64,000 bases of DNA, from assembly GCA_000004985.1 (NCBI GenBank), contig GG738857.1; one strand, 5' to 3'. Both the position numbers and the translations under genes were made by a program. Position 1 is the stretch's first letter, and each line of letters starts with the position of its first letter. The notes below the pieces were generated by a model. That model was not told the DNA's origin, made no database searches, and was given only the letters and a program-made list of their open reading frames with translations. Of the stretch, positions 5,978-17,717 are shown in pieces. This DNA is from Naegleria gruberi. Its lineage: Eukaryota.

Positions 5978-6058
5978 GCAGACTTGGCCGAGAGGTTAAG
6001 GCGCGAGACTCGAAATCTCGTGGGGAAACCTTCGTAGGTTCGAATCCTGCAGTCTGCG
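5978..6058 (+). tRNA. tRNA-Ser(CGA): tRNA-Ser (anticodon CGA), class II with long variable arm
   Basis: Folds as an 81-nt cloverleaf. Acceptor GCAGACT/AGTCTGC, anticodon stem CGAGA/TCTCG with loop CT-CGA-AA, 13-nt variable region, T arm GTAGG-TTCGAAT-CCTGC, discriminator G. Confidence 0.9.
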
Positions 6059-6411: not shown

Positions 6412-7353
6412 ATGTCGCAACTTGAAGACCCATCTTGATAAATTCTCTTCCCATAGAATTAATTTTGGATATTTATTCATTTTGCAATTTGGATGATTTA
6501 CGTAATTTAATGTTGTCTTTTTCACAATTTTATGAATTGTTGAAAAGTTCGGAAGCATATAGAGTGTGGATGATTCAATTACATCATCTCGATCTTATAC
6601 GAAACTCGAAAGAGAGAAAAACAAGGAAACAATTCAAGAATTTTTCCTTTTTGGAATTGAGTGATAATTTCGAAAGAGTTGGAAAGAATGGTTCCATTGA
6701 AAATAGAACGACAGTAATAATGAAGGTAATTCGTAAACAGTTACATTATTGTATTTTGAAGGAATTGGGTAGTGCAACTTTTTTAGAGAAATGCCATGAA
6801 AGACCAAGGTATTTGGAGGATTTTAGAGATTTGGTGATTGAAAAATTGACCAAAACTTGTGTCATTACATCGATGAATAGATATTTACTGGAATATGATC
6901 CATTCTATTTGTTTAAATATTCTAGTACAAGTACGATTGATCAGATCTTTTTGCAAACAGTTTGTAGATTTATGTTTTTGACAGAAAGTAGTTCTTTTGG
7001 AAGTGATAGTCCATTTCTCCAAACTTGGAAAAAAATGTCAAATAATCAATTGGAACCTAATGTTAAAATTTGGAAGGAAGTTTACCAGAAAAGGTTTTGC
7101 AAGAATACCAAAGCTTGTTTGTTGGCCTATTCAACTGCCTTATTATTTACATGACGGAGAATACAAGACAGCTAGTGAGTTGGTGAAAGAAGAGGGCAGA
7201 TTGAAATGGTTACCACGTTTCATTGAAGAGTTTGAATGTGGTGAAGAATTCAAAAATTTGACGAATCCAAACTGTGAGGAAGCATTAGGATACTGCCAAC
7301 ACTATTTCTACAAGTTCAATATCAATACTGGAAAAAGGCAGTACTTTTATTAA
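6412..7353 (+). CDS. F-box protein, with two unresolved reading-frame changes
   Basis: F-box 'SLPIELILDIYSFCNLDDLRNLMLSFSQFYELL' lies in ORF 6435..7154. The only well-placed ATG (6412, AAAAAATG) is in a different frame and hits TGA after 8 codons. The C-terminal part continues in ORF 6997..7353. That junction needs either a 52-nt GT-AG intron (7062..7113) or a 1-nt change in the T4 run 7095..7098. Confidence 0.5.
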
Positions 7354-8876: not shown

Positions 8877-8991
8877 AATAACCAAAGTTTAAACACCTTC
8901 TGACCTAGATGTTGGTTAATTAAGAGATTTTAGGTTCCGATTTATTAAGATATTAAGACATTAGCATATTTTTATGAGGAATGAATAAGAT

Positions 8992-9063
8992 TCCCGTGTA
9001 GTCCAATGGCTAGGATACCTGGCTTTCACCCAGGAGGTCCGGGTTCAATTCCCGGCATGGGAG
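8992..9063 (+). tRNA. tRNA-Glu(UUC): tRNA-Glu (anticodon UUC)
   Basis: Folds as a 72-nt cloverleaf. Acceptor TCCCGTG/CATGGGA (one G-U pair), anticodon stem CCTGG/CCAGG with loop CT-TTC-AC, 4-nt variable loop, T arm CCGGG-TTCAATT-CCCGG, discriminator G. A T-rich tract lies downstream. Confidence 0.9.
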
Positions 9064-9707
9064 AATCATTTTGTTTATTATTCAAAAAACTAGTCTTAAT
9101 TCGTGATAGTTCCTGTTTGAGATTTTCGACCACAAGCTTAGGTCAGAAATTATTTCCTTCCAAACAATCCGATGGGATATCCTGTTGTTTTTCTTATCTA
9201 CCATTGACGCACTTGTCCCTTCTTCAATGAAACTGAATATTTTTAAAATTCTTACTTCATTCCAATAGAAATAGTTCTCATCTTCAACGCTTAGTGTTTT
9301 TAATTAAAAAATGAACAGTTCTAACTAATTTACTAGACTTGGGCTAGTTCCATTGTTTTCGTTTGTAAAAGCAAATGTCGAGATGTGGCCACATTTGACT
9401 CCTCAAAGAAATTCTTCGCTCAACAACAAATTCCATTTAACTTTTTTCGAATCGTAAAATAAATTAACAAAATAATCATGAAGTTAACAAGTATCTAAAA
9501 TAGTTTCTGACTACCATTCTAAACAAATAACTTTTCACAAGAATCATTTTCACATCATCAAGTACCCAATTACCCAACCAAAAAAAAATCATTCAATACC
9601 CTACCTCATCCTAGTCTGGTCAATTGATACGTATTGACGTTAATTTTCACAACAACACTCATCAACGCCTGTTTTCCATCAAAACTAATCAAAACTAATT
9701 CAAACTA

Positions 9708-11516
9708 ATGAGGAAAAAGTCTTCTGCTTCATCCCACCTGTATTATTTTCCGTTGAGTTGTGTAATTCTTGATGGTGCCACTAATTTATTGACCACCATT
9801 GTGGACTCGTTCTCTCAACAAGATTCCACATCTTCAGCAGCAACTGGAAATAACCAAACTTTCAATGATACTTCATCAAATTGTAGCTCGCCATCATTAA
9901 TGACCGTTGACAGTTCAATGACATTTACAGAATATCATGATGGAAGATCGTTCACTGTTCCATGTGTTTATGAACTGAGAGATCGTTTTCAGAGGTTTTT
10001 GAAAGAAACTTCAACTAGGAGAGCTGATGATTATCTCATCAAGTTGCATAAATTAATGTTTTTAGATGAATTTTATGATCCAACAAGGAATAGAAGAAAG
10101 AGAATTGAGAATTGTGAAACATTATTCAGAATGTGTGATCAATATTTGACATTGATTCATATTCAATCAAAAAATTCACTTTCCTTTTCATTATTAGATA
10201 CATTCCCATATTTGTATAACTTTGAAGAAATGCAAAAGATTCAACCTGACAATTCCATTTTGAAAAATCATGAATATTTGGTGAAATGGTTCAGAAAACA
10301 ATCTGAAAATTTAAAGAAATATTTGGCAGAGAAAGCTAATCAAGAAGTATTGAATGGTGGAGAATCCACTTCACCAGTTTCACCAGAGGAATCAACACAT
10401 GACCTAAATGAATCGATGGCTTCTCCAACATTGAGTGGATATATTAATTCTCCAACAAAATCCATACCTGGCATTGAGGAAAAACAAGCAGAACAATCGA
10501 AACTTGCCGATTATTTGGATGAAAATGAATTGAAAATGTTAACATACATGTTGAGTTCTGAATTGGAAGATTACTTTTCACTCTTCCAAAAGTCAAATGT
10601 TAAATACATGAAAAAGTGGTTGGAAAAGAATGTAAAAAGTTTGCCAAACTATATTATTGACACAATATCCAAAAAGAGAAAGAAATATTTACATTATCAT
10701 GAAAATTACAAATTGAGAGAAGAAGATTTGAATATGAAAACAATTCTCGACTCTGATTTTGAATTCATTCAATATTTAGCAGAACATACTGAAGATTGGA
10801 CAATAATGAATTCAGATTCTCCCATCATTCAAAGTTTCAAATCAAAAGAAAACTATTCGAAAATTCCAGATATGAAAATGCAAAAGTTCATTTCAAAAAT
10901 CAATTATTCCATTGAAAATGTCTTGAAAACAACTCTTTGTAACACAGATGAAATTGGTGAAAAGGATAACATGATTGAATGCTCTGAATATCATCACTAT
11001 ACTGAAATTGATCCTTCCGTTTCGAGTAGAAAATATTCTTCAGTCATTCAAACTTCAATTATGAATTATGGATCGATATTTAAGAAACGTTCATTGGAAA
11101 ATGTAATTTCATGTAGGGCAACGTTTTGTGGAGATGAAATACAAGATGCCATTCATCTCTACAAGACATGTTCCTATGTTTCTAATAAGAATGAAGATTC
11201 TAAAGCTCCTGTAAAGATAGTTATTGTTGGAGGGAGAATCTTTTCAAGAATCGATTCGAATAGAACAAAAGTAATTGATGTACGAATGTTCAATGTTGGT
11301 GGAATGTTTTTCAATTCAGATTTTGTAGTGCACAAACTTTCGTCCAAGAAAATGCTAGACGATACTTTGGAATATTTGGAAAAATCAATGAAGAAATCAG
11401 AAAAGGAAGGTTTCCCAATGCCACAATCTGATAAGCATTTTATTTGGAAAACTTTTGCAGATTATTGTAAAGTTCATTGTAAAGTAAATGTTGAATTGAA
11501 ATGGGAGAAAAACTAG
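9708..11516 (+). CDS. Hypothetical protein, tandem paralogue A (C-terminal ~200 aa possibly START/Bet v1-like)
   Basis: Uninterrupted 602-aa ORF, colinear with the next gene. The START-like idea rests only on the spacing of W/hydrophobic/R-K patterns (DWTIMNSDSPII...FKKRSLENV...VIDVRMFNVGG) and is weak. Confidence 0.6.
   Translation: MRKKSSASSHLYYFPLSCVILDGATNLLTTIVDSFSQQDSTSSAATGNNQTFNDTSSNCSSPSLMTVDSSMTFTEYHDGRSFTVPCVYELRDRFQRFLKETSTRRADDYLIKLHKLMFLDEFYDPTRNRRKRIENCETLFRMCDQYLTLIHIQSKNSLSFSLLDTFPYLYNFEEMQKIQPDNSILKNHEYLVKWFRKQSENLKKYLAEKANQEVLNGGESTSPVSPEESTHDLNESMASPTLSGYINSPTKSIPGIEEKQAEQSKLADYLDENELKMLTYMLSSELEDYFSLFQKSNVKYMKKWLEKNVKSLPNYIIDTISKKRKKYLHYHENYKLREEDLNMKTILDSDFEFIQYLAEHTEDWTIMNSDSPIIQSFKSKENYSKIPDMKMQKFISKINYSIENVLKTTLCNTDEIGEKDNMIECSEYHHYTEIDPSVSSRKYSSVIQTSIMNYGSIFKKRSLENVISCRATFCGDEIQDAIHLYKTCSYVSNKNEDSKAPVKIVIVGGRIFSRIDSNRTKVIDVRMFNVGGMFFNSDFVVHKLSSKKMLDDTLEYLEKSMKKSEKEGFPMPQSDKHFIWKTFADYCKVHCKVNVELKWEKN
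10044..10325 (+). repeat. Near-identical 282-nt block shared with 12153..12434
   Basis: My by-eye alignment gives 5 mismatches in 282 nt, all synonymous third-position changes. The flanking coding sequence of the two paralogues is far more diverged. Confidence 0.85.
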
Positions 11517-11741
11517 ACAAATAAAAATTAACAGATCACACAATTTAACCAATAGTTGTTTAAAATGGAGGGAAATGTCCATAAATACTTGTTATCATCT
11601 CTTAAACGCATAAATACTATCACATGTCATTTGACTTTTGGCAAGTGTTTGATAAAATTAAGTTTAAAAAAAAATTAGTGAAAAACTAACACATATCCAA
11701 TAAGAGAATCATCTTTTAAAGGTGCGACACCCAATTCTTCA

Positions 11742-13613
11742 ATGAAATCTGCAGTTAAACCTTCATCATCATCCAAACATTTGTATTACTTTCCACTCAG
11801 CACAATTATCGTGGATGGATCAACAAGAAGTTTGTCATCCATGCTTTCTGAGAAAGCCACAACAACAGAAGAGGAAGTTATTAGAAAGTCAATAATGAGT
11901 AGAAGTAAGAGTGTTTCGTCTGCTTCAGGTTCTTTCGGTTCTACTCAACTTACAGTTGGTCCACTCTATACGAATGATTCGTCATCTGGTTGTAGTAGTT
12001 CTCCTTCACAATTAACTATTGATAGCAATGCAACGTTTACTGAATTTCATGATGGAAGATCATTCACGGTTCCATGCATTGTCGAATTGAGAGATCGCTT
12101 TCAACAATATTTAAAGTCAACTAGTGGAAATTCTGGTGATTTCCTATTGAAATTGCATAAATTAATGTTTTTAGATGAGTTTTATGATCCAACAAGGAAT
12201 AGAAGAAAGAGAATTGAGAATTGTGAAACATTATTCAGAATGTGTGATCAATATTTGACATTGATTCATATTCAATCAAAAAATTCACTTTCCTTTTCAT
12301 TATTAGATACATTTCCATATTTGTATAACTTCGAGGAAATGCAAAAGATTCAACCTGACAATTCCATTTTGAAAAATCACGAATATTTGGTGAAATGGTT
12401 CAGAAAACAATCTGAAAATTTAAAGAAATATTTGTCAGAGAAAGCTAGTCAAGAAATTGAAGTTTCCTCTTCACCTGAAGATAATACTGGAATGTTCTTG
12501 TCACCTTCAGTATCATCAACAACACTAAGTTTTGTAAATTCTCCAACATTGTCATTCCCTGGAAGTGATGTTGGACAGCCACTAGAAAAGACAAATCCCT
12601 CTTCTCAATTATTACTAGAATATTTGGATGAAAATGAATTGAAAATGTTAATTTACATGTTGAGTTCTGAATTGGAAGATTACTTTTCACTTTTTCAAAA
12701 AGCTAATCCCAAGTTTGTTAAAAAGTGGTTGGAAAAGAATGTAAAGAGTTTGCCAAACTATATTATTGACACAATTTCCAAAAAGAGAAAGAAATATTTA
12801 CACTATCATGAAAACTACAAATTAACTGAAGAAGATTTGAATATGAAAACAATTCTAGACTCTGATTTTGAATTCATTCAATATTTGGCCGAACATACTG
12901 AAGATTGGAAGATTCTAATGGATTCAAATCCAATAATAGCAGGATTTAAATCAAAAGAAAATTATTGTAAATTTACTGACATGAAAATGCAAAAATTCGT
13001 TACAACGGTCAATTATTCACTGGAAAATGTATTGAAAACCATGTTTGCTAACATTGAAGAATTAGGAGGTAGTGATAACATGATTGAAAGTTCTGAATAT
13101 CATCACTATACTGAAATTGATCCTTCCATTTCGAGTAGAAAATATTCTACTGTAATTCAAACATCATTGTGGAATTATGGATCAATATTCAAGAAACGTG
13201 CATTGGAAAATGTCATGTCATGCAAGGCAACATTTTGTGGAGATGAAATACAAGATGCCATTCATCTCTACAAGACATGTTCCTATGTTTCTAATAAGAA
13301 TGAAGATTCCAAAGCTCCAATTAAAATTATTGTGGTAGGAGGCAGAATATATTCCAAAATAGATTCAAATAGAACAAGAATTGTAGATGTAAGAATGTTC
13401 AATATTGGTGGGATTGTTGGAAACTTTGATTTTGTAACTTCAAACAAGTTGGTAGTGAAAAAGTCAATTGATGGAATTCTAGAATACTTGAAAAAAGCCA
13501 TGACCAATGCAGAAATGGAAGGTTTTCCAGTTCCTGATAGTTCTAAACACATTTGGAGAACACTAGTCGATTACTGTAGAGTGCATTGTAAAGTAGATAT
13601 TTCTAAATGGTAA
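11742..13613 (+). CDS. Hypothetical protein, tandem paralogue B
   Basis: Uninterrupted 623-aa ORF. It shares the N-terminal 'HLYYFPLS..I.DG.T', the central block LHKLMFLDEFYDPTRNRRKRIENCETLFRMCDQYL... and the C-terminal domain with paralogue A. Confidence 0.6.
   Translation: MKSAVKPSSSSKHLYYFPLSTIIVDGSTRSLSSMLSEKATTTEEEVIRKSIMSRSKSVSSASGSFGSTQLTVGPLYTNDSSSGCSSSPSQLTIDSNATFTEFHDGRSFTVPCIVELRDRFQQYLKSTSGNSGDFLLKLHKLMFLDEFYDPTRNRRKRIENCETLFRMCDQYLTLIHIQSKNSLSFSLLDTFPYLYNFEEMQKIQPDNSILKNHEYLVKWFRKQSENLKKYLSEKASQEIEVSSSPEDNTGMFLSPSVSSTTLSFVNSPTLSFPGSDVGQPLEKTNPSSQLLLEYLDENELKMLIYMLSSELEDYFSLFQKANPKFVKKWLEKNVKSLPNYIIDTISKKRKKYLHYHENYKLTEEDLNMKTILDSDFEFIQYLAEHTEDWKILMDSNPIIAGFKSKENYCKFTDMKMQKFVTTVNYSLENVLKTMFANIEELGGSDNMIESSEYHHYTEIDPSISSRKYSTVIQTSLWNYGSIFKKRALENVMSCKATFCGDEIQDAIHLYKTCSYVSNKNEDSKAPIKIIVVGGRIYSKIDSNRTRIVDVRMFNIGGIVGNFDFVTSNKLVVKKSIDGILEYLKKAMTNAEMEGFPVPDSSKHIWRTLVDYCRVHCKVDISKW
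12153..12434 (+). repeat. Near-identical 282-nt block shared with 10044..10325
   Basis: See the partner feature. A second mosaic block (about 10513..10805 versus 12618..12910) is also nearly identical. Confidence 0.85.
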
Positions 13614-13623
13614 ATTAAAATAT

Positions 13624-15363
13624 TTAATCTACATTATTGAGCAACTCGTCCATCTTTCTCTTTTTTGATTGTGATTCCTCTTCGTCTTCTGATTCACTCG
13701 AATAATATTCAGCATATTCGCTATCAGAATCAAATACTTCATCAAACTCCTTAGTTTCCTCTCTGTATCGTTTTGGTTTTGGAATATCATATACTTCACT
13801 TCTTGTACCCCAATAATTAAACCAATCTTTGTATTCCCTCTCATCTAGTTCTTTTACAAGTTTTCTGAGTCTCCAATTTTGTTTCAATCTATTTGAGGCA
13901 TACTCAATGCTATAAGAATTATCCTTCACAGCCTCTGTAACAATTTCTAGATCATCCTTGAATGTATCAGATACATGCTGGAGTACAAATCCATTACCTT
14001 TAACAGTCTCCAAAATAAACTCTCTATCACTTTTCAACTCCTCTGGAATCTGCTGGAAAAGTGCTGAGTTTTTTTTGAGTGCATTCAATAGCATGTTTCT
14101 GTCAACATTACCAAAATCTTTCATTTTCTCTAAAATTAATGGAACATTTTCTCGTGATAAAAGTGTGGCCTTCTTAATGTCATCCTCTCTTTCCATAATA
14201 TATTCTATTGCATTGGTGTGAGTGGATGTTGTCATGGATAGAACTTCCCAGTCATTTTGTAAATCAGGATCAGCATACACAATAGCACTTCCATCATTGG
14301 AAACGGCTGCCAAAACAATTTCCTTATCTGCCTGAAGCTCTTCTGAGGCATATTCCAAAGATAGCCCACAATTTCTTACTGCATTCAATACAATTTCACG
14401 ATCATCTCCATAATCTTCCCAAATATAACTCAAAACTTCTCCATTTTCATTTACACATTCCAAAATGAAATCTCTATCCTGATATAGTTCATCACACGAA
14501 TATTGAATTGCATATGGAAAGGTTTTGATAGCTTCCAAAATGATTTCGTTGTCTCGGAGGAATTCATTGTTCACAAATTGAATAGCCTCTCCATTATTCT
14601 TTAGGGCAAGTAAAACCATTTCTCTGGTTTGATTCTCTGCATAAAACAACATTTCCCCACAATGTCTCACCATACGGCAGAAATCTTTTGTGTTCACATA
14701 AAATGGTTGTCGGAACTGCCAGTCATCCAATGGATTCTGACTATATTTTACAGATATTCTTTGCAGTTCGTCACTGGCATCTAGGTCCAGTTCAAAGATA
14801 TTTAGATCTGGATGCTCTTTTGTTAATCGTTTAAGAAAATCCATATTCGTTTGGTAATGCTGACCAGTCGCAAAAACTCCTGAATTCAAAGCCACGTACT
14901 TTCCCACACTTTGACTGATATAATATTCATCATTTTCCAAATAAGGATCATCAATACATGCAATTTCAAATAGCTCTGTACAAGCATGTCCACATGAATC
15001 CACAAATTGATAAGCTGATCCATCGTTCTTAATAGCTTCCTTACAAACATCATAAGTGACCAAACCATGATCTGAAACACAACTCAGAGCATACCCATTT
15101 TGTTTAACAGCTTCTAACAACAATCCATACTCTACAATTTCATCATCATTGAAATATTCCATTGCCATTCCATTGTGTTGTACAGCTTTTAAAGCAAGCT
15201 TCTCACGAAGATCATCGCTAGCCAAGTCAATCAATTCACAACAATACATGCCAGCCTTTAACATGAATTCTTCATCGGAGCCTAATATTTTCATCATTGA
15301 AGCTTCAATAGGAAAGTCAGAACAAACCGATGGATAATATTCCATGAGCCTCATGTTAATCAT
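13624..15363 (-). CDS. DUF4116-repeat protein
   Basis: 579-aa ORF built from repeated ~30-aa units of the DUF4116 type (ELQADKEIVLAAVSNDGSAIVYADPDLQND; ELKSDREFILETVKGNGFVLQHVSDTFKDD; LEIVTEAVKDNSYSIEYASNRLKQN), with an acidic C-terminal tail. The upstream ORF 15356..15562 (ATG in GAAAAAATG context) may be its true 5' end, but it lies in another frame. Confidence 0.7.
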   Translation of the reverse strand: MINMRLMEYYPSVCSDFPIEASMMKILGSDEEFMLKAGMYCCELIDLASDDLREKLALKAVQHNGMAMEYFNDDEIVEYGLLLEAVKQNGYALSCVSDHGLVTYDVCKEAIKNDGSAYQFVDSCGHACTELFEIACIDDPYLENDEYYISQSVGKYVALNSGVFATGQHYQTNMDFLKRLTKEHPDLNIFELDLDASDELQRISVKYSQNPLDDWQFRQPFYVNTKDFCRMVRHCGEMLFYAENQTREMVLLALKNNGEAIQFVNNEFLRDNEIILEAIKTFPYAIQYSCDELYQDRDFILECVNENGEVLSYIWEDYGDDREIVLNAVRNCGLSLEYASEELQADKEIVLAAVSNDGSAIVYADPDLQNDWEVLSMTTSTHTNAIEYIMEREDDIKKATLLSRENVPLILEKMKDFGNVDRNMLLNALKKNSALFQQIPEELKSDREFILETVKGNGFVLQHVSDTFKDDLEIVTEAVKDNSYSIEYASNRLKQNWRLRKLVKELDEREYKDWFNYWGTRSEVYDIPKPKRYREETKEFDEVFDSDSEYAEYYSSESEDEEESQSKKRKMDELLNNVD

Positions 15364-15973
15364 ATTTAACGTTGAGAAACTTGGTTCTTTCTTGTGATGT
15401 TTCCATCAAGTGTTTTTTCAACAACCTCCGCAGCCATAATTCATCATGATCACCATCACCATCACGATTAGAATATTCCAATAATGATGGATTCGATGAT
15501 GATGTTGTTATTTGATGATGAAAATCTATCAAAGTAATCACAACGTTATCTTGTCGGGACATTTTTTCTTGTTTCTACCAAAGAATGGAAATGTTCACTG
15601 TTGTACATTTGCAGGAACTATTTACACTTGTTTTGTTGCAACATGGGTATCTGTGGTTTTTTTTAAATTAATTATATATATATTTAAAATTATTGTTAAC
15701 GGTACCCAACAGCGCCATTTCTACTATTGGGCAGTCTAGACTACGGCACTGAGTCAATTCTGGTTTCAAATTGTAACAATAATTATTTTAATAATCAATT
15801 CACTTGCTGTAGTAAAATAGAATTTTCAACAGAGTTCAGGTCAACTTGGAAATTTCTAAACGGAATAAATCAATTTCTCCATTGTCGCATCCAGTGAATT
15901 TCACAATCCAACGAAATTCCACTGTATCCACTAATAACATGTCAATAGTTTGGACTGTTCGAAAGAAAAAAAA

Positions 15974-17717
15974 ATGTTACTCACTGCTTTCACCATACTT
16001 TCGTATAGTTTATTGTTTATTCTTTCTGTTGCTTTTCTATTTCTACTGCACAGATATGTAGTTTATAGAAAACATTGTAAAATGGTTTCACATATTCCTG
16101 GTCATTGTCAATTTGTTCCTCCGCCACTTGTCAAATTTATTCCACAATTTTTACGAGATGAAAATTGGATTACTGACATGGGTGATGTTTTTTCATTGGA
16201 TACTTTATTAAACAGCCAGAAGAAATTCAAAACAGATCATTACAAAATGGTCTTTGGATTCTTAAATGCTCCAATGATAATTATTGATAATCCAAAAATG
16301 GGAAAGGAAATTGCAACCAAGAAGAAATTTAAAAAACCAAACATGTTAAAATCAGCTCAAGTTGAACTATTTTCTGGAACTAATATTTTTGTAGAAGATG
16401 AATATCATACTTGGTTACATCAGAGACAATTAATGGATCCAAGTTTTACTCCAGAAAGTTTGAGAATGGTTGCACATGTTACTTCTGAAACTGTTCGAAA
16501 CGATATGATTCCATTTATAGAAAGTAATAGAAATGGAAATGATATTATGGGTGATTTTGCAAAATTAACAATGAATGTTATTGGAATTGCTGGATTTGGT
16601 AAGTTTTTATTGATTATTTTTTATATGATAAATTCGAATTGTAAAAGGTTACAATTTTGATACTTTCAATAATAAGGATGAAAATAGTTTGGAAAAGAAA
16701 TCAGCTCTCTATATTAATTCAATTAATACTTATAGAACTTGTCCAAAAGTTATTAGAAACCACATTAATATTGGATTGTTTGGGAAGGTTAGAGATGCAG
16801 CCACATGTTTCAAACAAGCTATTGGAAAGATTATTCAAAAAAGAGAAATTCATGAAGAAAATGAATCAACTTCAGATGACCAAAAGTCAGACGTCTTGTC
16901 AATCTTATTAAGAGAAAGAAAAACTAAACAGAAAGATGAAAATGGCTCTCTCACCAATGATGAACTAATCTCTAACTCGTTTGTTCTTTTAGTTGCCGGC
17001 CATGAGGTTCGTGTTTTATAATTAATTTTACAAGTATTTTACAAAATATTTGAGACAACTGCAAGAACTCTTGGATTTGCAACTTTTGTGTTGGCAACTA
17101 ATGAAACAGTTCAACAACAAGTTCATGAATTCATTGATGGATTTGTCAAGCAAAATAATGGAAGGGAACATTTCGATTATGATGATTTTGCATCTGGTAA
17201 ATTGGATTATCTCAGAGCTCTATTCCGTGAAACTTTGAGATTATATCCAGTGGCATTGGGTGTTCCAAGAGAGCTCACTTCCAATTCATCAGAATTTAAC
17301 AATGTTTTACTGCCAAAAGGTTCACTAGTTCTCTATTCATGGGCAAATACATTGAGAAATGAGGAATATTGGAAGGATGCCGAAACATTTAATCCTCTCA
17401 GATTTTTGAAAGATGAAGATGAAAGAAGAATGGGTGTTTTTGGTGCATTGCATAATCCACAAACTAATCCATTTGTTTATTCTGTATTTGGAATTGGTGG
17501 AAGAGTTTGTATTGTAAGTTTTTACAACTAATTGAAATCTAATAATACCTTGTAGGGAAGATATTTTAGTGAAGTTGAATCAGTTATTGCTCTTGCCTAT
17601 CTCACAAGAAAGTATTCATTCAAATTGTCTGATCCAAATTATAAGCTTGTATTAAAGACAAGAGTGACACTCTCTCCACAGGACACTATTCTCATTGATT
17701 ATGTTCCTAGAAATTAG
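15974..17717 (+). CDS. Cytochrome P450
   Basis: Four exons: 15974..16598, 16648..17006, 17055..17513, 17556..17717. Introns are 49, 48 and 42 nt, GT-AG and phase-consistent. Splicing restores the I-helix AGHE|TT, the K-helix ETLRLYP and the heme-binding FGIGGRVCI|G motif across exon junctions. An N-terminal membrane anchor is present (LLTAFTILSYSLLFILSVAFLFLL). Confidence 0.9.

What the first reader, a model, noticed from the sequence alone, without database searches (positions are those of the whole stretch)
9708..13613. Tandem paralogues with mosaic near-identical nucleotide blocks (gene-conversion signature)
The two genes are colinear but diverged at their N-termini and in linker regions. 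Nevertheless 10044..10325 and 12153..12434 differ at only 5 of 282 positions by my count, all synonymous. A second block (about 10513..10805 versus 12618..12910) is similarly conserved. Identity at synonymous sites is not explained by protein-level selection alone. It suggests recent gene conversion, or a nucleotide-level functional element embedded in the CDS.
Basis: seen in the sequence. Interest (0 to 1): 0.5.

Follow-up and report, generated by a model that had tools for sequence, protein, structure and literature searches.

The report
Gene conversion between tandem Naegleria paralogues
Two old, neighbouring duplicate genes of the amoeba Naegleria gruberi have had three or four short stretches copied from one to the other, a textbook process (gene conversion) seen here in an uncharacterised protein family that looks like a G-protein-regulator domain joined to a lipid-binding START domain.

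Summary
The window is Naegleria gruberi nuclear DNA. Genes A (9708-11516) and B (11742-13613) are colinear tandem paralogues. Block 1 (10044-10325 vs 12153-12434) differs at exactly 5 of 282 positions, all synonymous.

Silent divergence is strongly mosaic. dS is about 0.10-0.15, 0.49 and 0.31 in three blocks. In the N-terminus, linker, middle and C-terminus, silent sites are at the level expected for full saturation (chi-square p = 7e-15; permutation 1 in 100,000).

Protein constraint does not explain this. Block 1 is the least conserved structured segment across the family, at 35% identity to other family members. The N. lovaniensis/N. fowleri orthologue pair shows no matching dS dip. No RNA family or structure signal was found. 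Five related loci elsewhere carry a single copy.

The best explanation is an old tandem duplication followed by several short interlocus gene-conversion events of different ages.

The helical region upstream is probably a divergent RGS-like domain.

This is an ordinary mechanism in a new instance, of modest interest.

The parts
9708..11516 (+). Gene A, 602 aa (identical to P0002, 'predicted protein [Naegleria gruberi]'). Layout: disordered N-terminus, helical RGS-like region split by a disordered linker, then a C-terminal START-fold domain.
   Evidence: ORF; identity to P0002; AF2 model with pTM 0.69; Foldseek START hits.
11742..13613 (+). Gene B, a 623-aa uninterrupted ORF and tandem paralogue of A. 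The public model P0001 (481 aa) uses a spurious intron and has a frameshifted tail.
   Evidence: ORF; colinear alignment with A and with orthologues through to the final 'KVDISKW'; P0001 sequence.
10044..10346 (+). Encodes the N-terminal helices of the RGS-like region. The left edge is sharp: 10 mismatches in the preceding 23 nt.
12153..12455 (+). Conversion tract 1, copy in B.
10347..10511 (+). Disordered, indel-rich linker in A (B: 12456-12620). It is unconverted, with saturated silent sites, and it bounds tracts 1 and 2.
   Evidence: (pLDDT below 50 for residues 218-261).
10512..10800 (+). Conversion tract 2, copy in A. About 95% identical to B, except for an embedded 19-nt divergent patch at 10592-10610 with 11 mismatches. 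Encodes the C-terminal helices of the RGS-like region and the first START helix.
12621..12909 (+). Conversion tract 2, copy in B.
10929..11209 (+). Region 3 in A, the START beta-sheet core. dS is 0.31 over 10929-11198, with a near-identical core at 11124-11209 (1 mismatch in 86 nt). Its boundaries are less sharp than those of tracts 1 and 2.
13038..13318 (+). Region 3, copy in B.
11517..11741 (.). The 225-nt spacer between A and B. It shares no similarity with the region upstream of A, so homology is confined to the coding sequences.

Best explanation
A and B come from an old tandem duplication in the N. gruberi lineage. Their silent sites are fully randomised wherever they have evolved independently. 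Since then, short stretches of about 80-300 nt have been copied non-reciprocally from one copy to the other. This happened at least three times, at different dates. The likely route is homology-directed repair of DNA breaks using the neighbouring direct repeat 2.1 kb away as template, either within one chromatid or from the sister chromatid. Tract 1 and the 86-nt core are the youngest events. Tracts 2 and 3 are older. The indel-rich, low-complexity N-terminus and linker break homology and probably limit how far a tract can spread.

Shown here: the mosaic itself, its statistical significance, the failure of protein or RNA constraint to account for it, and the single-copy state of relatives. Inferred: the repair mechanism, the number of events and their order, and the idea that the linkers block tract spread. 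The direction of transfer is unknown.
For: 1. Nei-Gojobori dS between A and B varies sharply by segment: N-terminus saturated, block 1 0.15, linker 4.9, block 2 0.49, middle 2.0, block 3 0.31, C-terminus 1.8. A re-alignment gave 0.10 for block 1.
2. Outside the blocks, the share of identical-amino-acid codons that differ synonymously matches the saturation expectation from local codon usage (observed/expected 0.56/0.53, 0.46/0.56, 0.40/0.43, 0.47/0.47). Inside the blocks it is 0.08-0.14 against an expected 0.46.
3. Heterogeneity is significant: chi-square p = 7e-15, permutation 1 in 100,000. Two- and three-state HMMs beat a single mismatch rate by about 190-215 log-likelihood units and place sharp boundaries.
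4. Block 1 is 100% identical in protein between A and B but only 35% identical to other family members. The C-terminus is more conserved family-wide (48%) yet only 63% identical between A and B.
5. In the unconverted C-terminus, A-B identity (0.63) is barely above B-N. lovaniensis (0.56) or B-mg4 (0.57). A+B sister support is 198-199 of 200 in the blocks against 49 of 200 in the C-terminus.
6. The orthologue control shows no matching dS pattern.
7. The gene is single-copy at five related loci, L001-L005. A neighbouring paralogue pair in N. lovaniensis, 33% identical, shows no nucleotide blocks.
8. Similarity stops at the CDS ends.
Against: - Only two sequences from one genome are available, so standard GENECONV/RDP tests with outgroup-defined polymorphic sites could not be run.
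- No close relative carrying the tandem pair was found. Segment-wise gene-versus-species trees therefore cannot be made.
- There is no rise in GC3 in the tracts, so no GC-biased conversion footprint. The sample is small, and GC bias is not obligatory.
- Block 3 coincides with one of the more conserved protein segments of the family (about 54% identity to other members, second to block 2). Part of its low divergence could be constraint, and its edges are diffuse.
- The 19-nt divergent patch inside tract 2 needs an extra assumption: a discontinuous tract, or later rapid divergence.
Confidence: 0.85

Rival explanations
1. Unequal crossing-over or partial re-duplication produced chimeric copies. 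On this view the mosaic reflects reciprocal exchange and copy-number change in the array, not non-reciprocal conversion.
For: Tandem direct repeats 2.1 kb apart are a good substrate for this. Tract 1 has sharp edges. Sequence from one genome cannot separate reciprocal from non-reciprocal exchange.
Against: Each unequal crossover gives one breakpoint and changes the copy number. The alternating pattern seen here (diverged, similar, diverged, similar, and so on), with at least six boundaries and three divergence levels, would need many crossovers plus restoration of exactly two copies. Short internal patches are the hallmark of conversion.
Confidence: 0.07
2. A nucleotide-level functional element lies inside the CDS and holds the synonymous sites fixed in both copies. 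Candidates are a structured RNA, an internal regulatory element or an antisense transcript.
For: Near-perfect identity at synonymous sites over 282 nt is what such an element would produce.
Against: No Rfam family matches within the blocks. Folding z-scores are +0.36 and -0.13 for the two strands of block 1. No minus-strand ORF of 80 aa or more is listed within gene A, whereas gene B has two such ORFs with no counterpart in A. Orthologues are not constrained at silent sites here: N. lovaniensis-N. fowleri dS is 0.57, and A or B vs N. lovaniensis is saturated. Three blocks with graded divergence would need three separate elements.
Confidence: 0.04
3. Ordinary purifying selection on the protein, together with codon bias, explains the similarity. 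No DNA exchange took place.
For: Blocks 2 and 3 fall on the better conserved parts of the family.
Against: Synonymous differences among identical codons are 3-6 times rarer in the blocks than codon usage predicts at saturation. GC3 is the same in blocks and non-blocks. Block 1 is among the least conserved structured regions of the family.
Confidence: 0.02
4. Assembly artefact: reads from one copy, or from another haplotype, were mis-assigned in the draft genome and created falsely similar patches.
For: The source is a draft assembly. The exact proteins were not found on any independent contig in the collection.
Against: The blocks are not identical (5, 27 and 35 differences) and have different divergence levels. 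Both ORFs remain intact and in frame. The tracts are much shorter than a Sanger read, so a mis-assigned read would not give such patches. That last point is my inference, not a test.
Confidence: 0.02

Closest known systems
Interlocus (ectopic) gene conversion and concerted evolution of tandem duplicates. One example is the tandem gene arrays of Trypanosoma brucei, another discoban protist (Jackson 2007, PMC1855330, abstract read). Classic cases such as the globin genes are cited from general knowledge.
   Same: Tandem direct paralogues. Different regions give inconsistent phylogenetic affinities. Homogenisation coexists with divergence. Structural heterogeneity (indel-rich regions) separates homogenised from diverging parts.
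   Different: This is a two-gene pair, not an array. The duplicates are otherwise saturated at silent sites, so the conversion patches stand out unusually clearly. No population or multi-species data are available to show the events directly.
N. gruberi flagellar alpha-tubulin gene family (Lai et al. 1988, PMC2115128, abstract read)
   Same: A multi-copy gene family in the same organism. The abstract describes its copies as 'exceptionally similar and yet neither identical' at the DNA level.
   Different: Those genes are dispersed and similar over the whole coding region. They also encode a highly constrained protein. Here only patches are similar, and the protein family evolves quickly.
START / StARkin lipid-transfer domains (STARD10, CERT, STARD4, STARD5, STARD3/MLN64)
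   Same: The predicted C-terminal domain has the order α-β3-α2-β6-α. START domains are the best Foldseek PDB hits: E from 2e-6 to 1e-4, target TM-score about 0.6, 200-270 aligned columns.
   Different: Sequence identity is 9-12%. No Pfam START hit appears even at E up to 10. No ligand or cavity analysis was done.
RGS / RGS-homology domains (RGS4, SNX25, SNX13, Axin)

Membership tests
Interlocus gene conversion between paralogues | Two paralogous copies in one genome that can serve as donor and acceptor | tested here: met
   Colinear tandem genes with a 2109-nt offset, same strand.
Interlocus gene conversion between paralogues | Significant clustering of identical silent sites into discrete tracts against a diverged background | tested here: met
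   dS is 0.10-0.49 in the tracts and saturated elsewhere. Chi-square p = 7e-15; permutation 1 in 100,000; HMM boundaries.
Interlocus gene conversion between paralogues | The pattern is not explained by selective constraint (orthologue or family control) | tested here: met
   Block 1 is 35% conserved across the family but 100% identical between A and B. N. lovaniensis-N. fowleri dS is 0.57 in block 1, and the two profiles are uncorrelated. No RNA signal.
Interlocus gene conversion between paralogues | Phylogenetic incongruence between tracts and flanks | tested here: inconclusive
   A+B sister support is 198-199 of 200 in the blocks, 49 of 200 in the C-terminus and 140 of 200 in the middle segment. 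This fits conversion, but no species with an orthologous pair exists to show gene-wise versus species-wise grouping.
Interlocus gene conversion between paralogues | Non-reciprocal transfer observed directly (population, pedigree or strain data) | not testable with these tools
   No other N. gruberi strain or close relative was found.
START domain (Pfam PF01852; Bet v1-like / StARkin superfamily) | Helix-grip α/β fold with a nine-stranded antiparallel sheet and a long C-terminal helix | tested here: met
   The AF2 secondary-structure order for residues 348-566 matches α1-β1-3-α2-α3-β4-9-α4. Top Foldseek PDB hits are STARD10, CERT, STARD5 and STARD4, with E from 2e-6 to 2e-5. The model is of medium confidence: pLDDT 50-85 in this domain, from a 9-sequence alignment.
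START domain (Pfam PF01852; Bet v1-like / StARkin superfamily) | Match to the Pfam START profile | tested here: not met
   No START hit for A, B or any of the 9 aligned members at E up to 10, nor in 20 more distant members at E up to 0.01.
START domain (Pfam PF01852; Bet v1-like / StARkin superfamily) | Hydrophobic ligand cavity and lipid binding | not tested
   No cavity analysis or experiment was done.
RGS domain (Pfam PF00615) | Match to the Pfam RGS profile | tested here: not met
   No hit in A, B or close relatives. Only the distant relatives P0053, P0054, P0057 and P0059 hit, with E from 1e-10 to 1e-15.
RGS domain (Pfam PF00615) | All-helical RGS fold | tested here: inconclusive
RGS domain (Pfam PF00615) | GAP-active Gα-contact residues | not tested
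   The alignment to RGS4 is too uncertain to map residues.

The most novel reading that the evidence does not exclude
The patches may not be neutral by-products of repair. Conversion, or retention of converted alleles, may be selectively maintained in a domain-specific way. On this reading the two paralogues keep an identical RGS-like module, and so the same signalling partner. Meanwhile the N-terminus, the linker and the lid and C-terminal helix of the START-like domain are free to diverge, giving different lipid or ligand specificity. The pair would then be an example of domain-selective concerted evolution in a previously undescribed heterolobosean family of RGS-like plus START-like lipid-sensing G-protein regulators.
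Probability: 0.15. Interest if true: 0.5.

Novelty: new member of a known kind. Interest (0 to 1): 0.27.

Why it matters
As a mechanism, this is textbook interlocus gene conversion. Its value is as a clean, well-bounded example in a free-living excavate where recombination is poorly documented.

- Fully saturated flanks make tracts of about 80-300 nt and their relative ages directly readable.
- Such tracts show that homologous recombination between nearby repeats operates in the N. gruberi lineage.

There are also practical by-products.

- The public model of gene B appears wrong: truncated and frameshifted by a spurious intron.
- An unannotated, Naegleria-expanded protein family receives a first structural assignment: a START-fold C-terminal domain preceded by a probable divergent RGS-like domain.
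- Trees or dS-based dating of this gene pair will be misleading unless the converted tracts are masked.

Tried and rejected
- Pfam scans of A, B and seven relatives gave nothing above noise.
- A PDB sequence search with the family profile gave only a chance hit at E = 0.07.
- An Rfam scan of 9000-14000 found only the upstream tRNA-Glu plus three hits at E near 1.
- RNA folding of block 1 on both strands was no more stable than shuffled sequence.
- There is no GC3 enrichment in the tracts, so no footprint of GC-biased conversion.
- There is no third copy or pseudogene in the 64-kb window that could act as donor.
- Exact-protein look-ups for A and B in other assemblies found nothing.
- Two metagenome scans for close relatives found nothing: a protein-pattern scan and a degenerate 50-mer from block 1.
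- A second indexed protein search with the alignment added no new members.
- The afdb50 Foldseek library was unavailable.
- A neighbouring paralogue pair in N. lovaniensis (P0019/P0023) was checked for similar patches. It has none.
- Literature searches found no paper on this gene pair or on an RGS-START architecture.
Full report
**What the window is.** GC content is about 31%. The two ORFs match 'predicted protein [Naegleria gruberi]': P0002 is 100% identical to gene A, and P0001 is 100% identical to gene B over 74% of its length. The window is therefore N. gruberi nuclear DNA. Gene A (9708-11516, 602 aa) and gene B (11742-13613, 623 aa) lie head to tail on the + strand, 225 nt apart.

**Checking the observation.**
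- A protein-guided codon alignment shows the genes are colinear. Indels are confined to the N-terminus, a linker and two single-codon sites.
- Block 1 is exactly as described: 10044-10325 vs 12153-12434 has 5 of 282 mismatches, all synonymous. It includes a 134-nt perfect match.
- The second block as written is 4 nt out of register, giving 216 of 293 mismatches. With the common offset of 2109 (10509-10801 vs 12618-12910) there are 27 of 293 mismatches, 11 of them inside a 19-nt patch at 10592-10610.
- A third region at about 10929-11198 has reduced divergence. It overlaps a near-identical core at 11124-11209, with 1 mismatch in 86 nt.

**Is dS uniform?** No.
- Nei-Gojobori dS by segment: N-terminus saturated, block 1 0.15, linker 4.9, block 2 0.49, middle 2.0, block 3 0.31, C-terminus 1.8. 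A second alignment gave 0.10 for block 1.
- I then took only codons whose amino acid is identical in both genes. In the four unconverted segments, the share differing synonymously (0.56, 0.46, 0.40, 0.47) matches what two independent draws from local codon usage would give (0.53, 0.56, 0.43, 0.47). Those silent sites are fully randomised. In the blocks the share is 0.08, 0.14 and 0.12, against an expected 0.46.
- Heterogeneity across segments: chi-square 78.4, p = 7e-15. A 90-codon window as clean as block 1 arose in 1 of 100,000 permutations, and a 43-codon run with no silent change in 11 of 100,000.
- Two- and three-state HMMs on the mismatch series improve the log-likelihood from -796 to -607 and -581. 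They place sharp edges at 10043/10044 and 10346/10347. Ten mismatches fall in the 23 nt just left of tract 1, against one in the next 160 nt.

**Constraint or exchange?**
- *Family-level conservation.* Block 1 is 100% identical in protein between A and B. Across the family it is the least conserved structured segment: 35% identity of A and B to six other members, and 40% among those members. The C-terminal segment is more conserved across the family (48%) yet only 63% identical between A and B.
- *Age of the duplication.* In that C-terminal segment, A-B identity (0.63) barely exceeds B-N. lovaniensis (0.56) or B-mg4 (0.57). NJ bootstrap support for A+B as sisters is 49 of 200 there, against 198-199 of 200 in the blocks. 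The duplication is therefore old, and the blocks have a much younger common ancestry.
Between the N. lovaniensis and N. fowleri orthologues, dS is 0.57 in block 1, 0.95 in block 2 and 1.04 in block 3, with a gene mean of 0.79. The lowest value (0.37) lies in the 'middle' segment, which is saturated between A and B. The two profiles are uncorrelated (Spearman r = 0.19, p = 0.46). A or B against N. lovaniensis is saturated everywhere.
- *Other signals.* No Rfam family matches within the blocks. Block 1 folds no better than shuffled sequence on either strand, with z of +0.36 and -0.13. GC3 is the same inside and outside the blocks, so local codon bias is not the cause. The regions upstream of the two genes share nothing.

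**Context in relatives.**
- The homologous gene is single-copy at its locus in N. lovaniensis (L001), N. fowleri (L002), a second N. lovaniensis paralogue (L003) and two environmental contigs (L004, L005). The tandem pair is therefore specific to the N. gruberi lineage among sampled genomes.
- A neighbouring but divergently oriented paralogue pair in N. lovaniensis (P0019/P0023, 33% identical) shows no nucleotide blocks.
- No closer relative of N. gruberi could be found. A gene-versus-species tree test was therefore not possible.

**Mechanism.** The most economical account is an old tandem duplication followed by several short, non-reciprocal transfers (interlocus gene conversion) during homology-directed break repair between direct repeats 2.1 kb apart.
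- Tract lengths of about 80-300 nt and the patchy structure are typical of ectopic conversion. That statement rests on general knowledge, not on a test here.
- The three divergence levels indicate at least three events: tract 1 and the 86-nt core are youngest, and tracts 2 and 3 are older.
- The indel-rich, disordered N-terminus and linker (pLDDT below 50) interrupt homology and probably delimit the tracts. This is inference.
- Donor and recipient cannot be told apart, because outgroups are saturated.
- Unequal crossing-over is a related alternative. It would need many events and restoration of copy number to give at least six boundaries.

**What the genes encode.**
- Pfam finds nothing.
- An AF2 model of A has pTM 0.69 and mean pLDDT 66. 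It shows a disordered N-terminus, a helical region (residues 86-216 and 256-341) split by a disordered linker, and a C-terminal α/β domain with the order α-β3-α2-β6-α.
- The best Foldseek matches against the PDB are all START domains: STARD10 at 2.3e-6, then CERT, STARD5, STARD4, STARD13, BmCBP and MLN64. More distant Bet v1-like proteins follow.
- An exhaustive profile search found 76 cluster representatives. Several named ones are multiple Naegleria paralogues.
- The most distant relatives have a bona fide Pfam RGS domain immediately upstream of the homologous START-like domain. They include Acrasis kona KAL0481656.1, annotated 'RGS domain-containing protein'.
- The family motif 'ELEDxFSLFQK' aligns with the C-terminal RGS helix motif of P0053. 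Profile-profile alignment is not significant.
- I therefore call the helical region a probable, highly divergent RGS-like domain carrying a disordered insertion.
- Tract 1 covers its N-terminal half. Tract 2 covers its C-terminal half plus the first START helix. Region 3 covers the START sheet core. The unconverted parts include START β1-β3/α2-α3 and the C-terminal strands and helix.

**Comparison with what is known.** Concerted evolution and gene conversion in tandem duplicates are long established. In another discoban, T. brucei, tandem arrays show region-dependent phylogenetic affinities, and homogenisation is limited by structural heterogeneity (PMC1855330). In N. gruberi itself, the alpha-tubulin genes were described as exceptionally similar at the DNA level (PMC2115128). 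I found no paper on this gene pair or on an RGS-START architecture.

**Verdict.** This is a clear new instance of a known process, with a modest bonus in the domain assignment of an uncharacterised heterolobosean family and a corrected gene model for B. Interest is low to moderate.

Noticed in passing
window 11742-13613 (gene B) vs P0001: The public N. gruberi model for gene B (P0001, 481 aa) ends in 'KTCIGKCHVMQGNILWR'. This is an out-of-frame reading of B's own sequence reached through a predicted intron. The uninterrupted 623-aa ORF aligns with A and all orthologues through to the last residues, so the public model is probably wrong.
   Followed up: partly
window 8991-9064 (+) and 5978-6058 (+): tRNA-Glu(UUC) lies about 640 nt upstream of gene A, and tRNA-Ser(CGA) lies further upstream.
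   Followed up: no
window 13624-15363 (-): A 579-aa protein made of seven DUF4116 repeats (Pfam E = 1e-84) converges on gene B. Its stop codon lies only 10 nt from B's stop codon.
   Followed up: no
window 6435-7154 (+): An ORF with a borderline F-box match at its N-terminus: E = 4e-4, exactly at the Pfam cut-off.
   Followed up: no
window 15950-17021 (+): Three consecutive ORFs in different frames look, on reading the translations, like a cytochrome P450-type gene interrupted by short introns. This was not verified with any search.
   Followed up: no
L002 10001-10400 (N. fowleri orthologue): The annotated intron in the N. fowleri gene removes sequence that, read in frame 0, resembles the N. 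lovaniensis N-terminus ('HSHNDLSSVHDNTATSSSSC' vs 'NSHNDLSSIHDNTNTATSSSSC'). This suggests a frameshift or sequencing error hidden by a false intron.
   Followed up: no
window 10592-10610 / 12701-12719: A 19-nt patch with 11 mismatches ('KSNVKYM' vs 'KANPKFV') sits inside the otherwise roughly 95% identical tract 2. It could be a discontinuous conversion tract or local divergence after conversion.
   Followed up: partly
L006 4283-7180 (-) and 10001-12346 (+), N. lovaniensis: Two further members of the same family (P0023 and P0019) lie 2.8 kb apart in divergent orientation around a succinyl-CoA-ligase-like gene. They are 33% identical and have no shared nucleotide blocks. The family is multi-copy in Naegleria.
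   Followed up: yes
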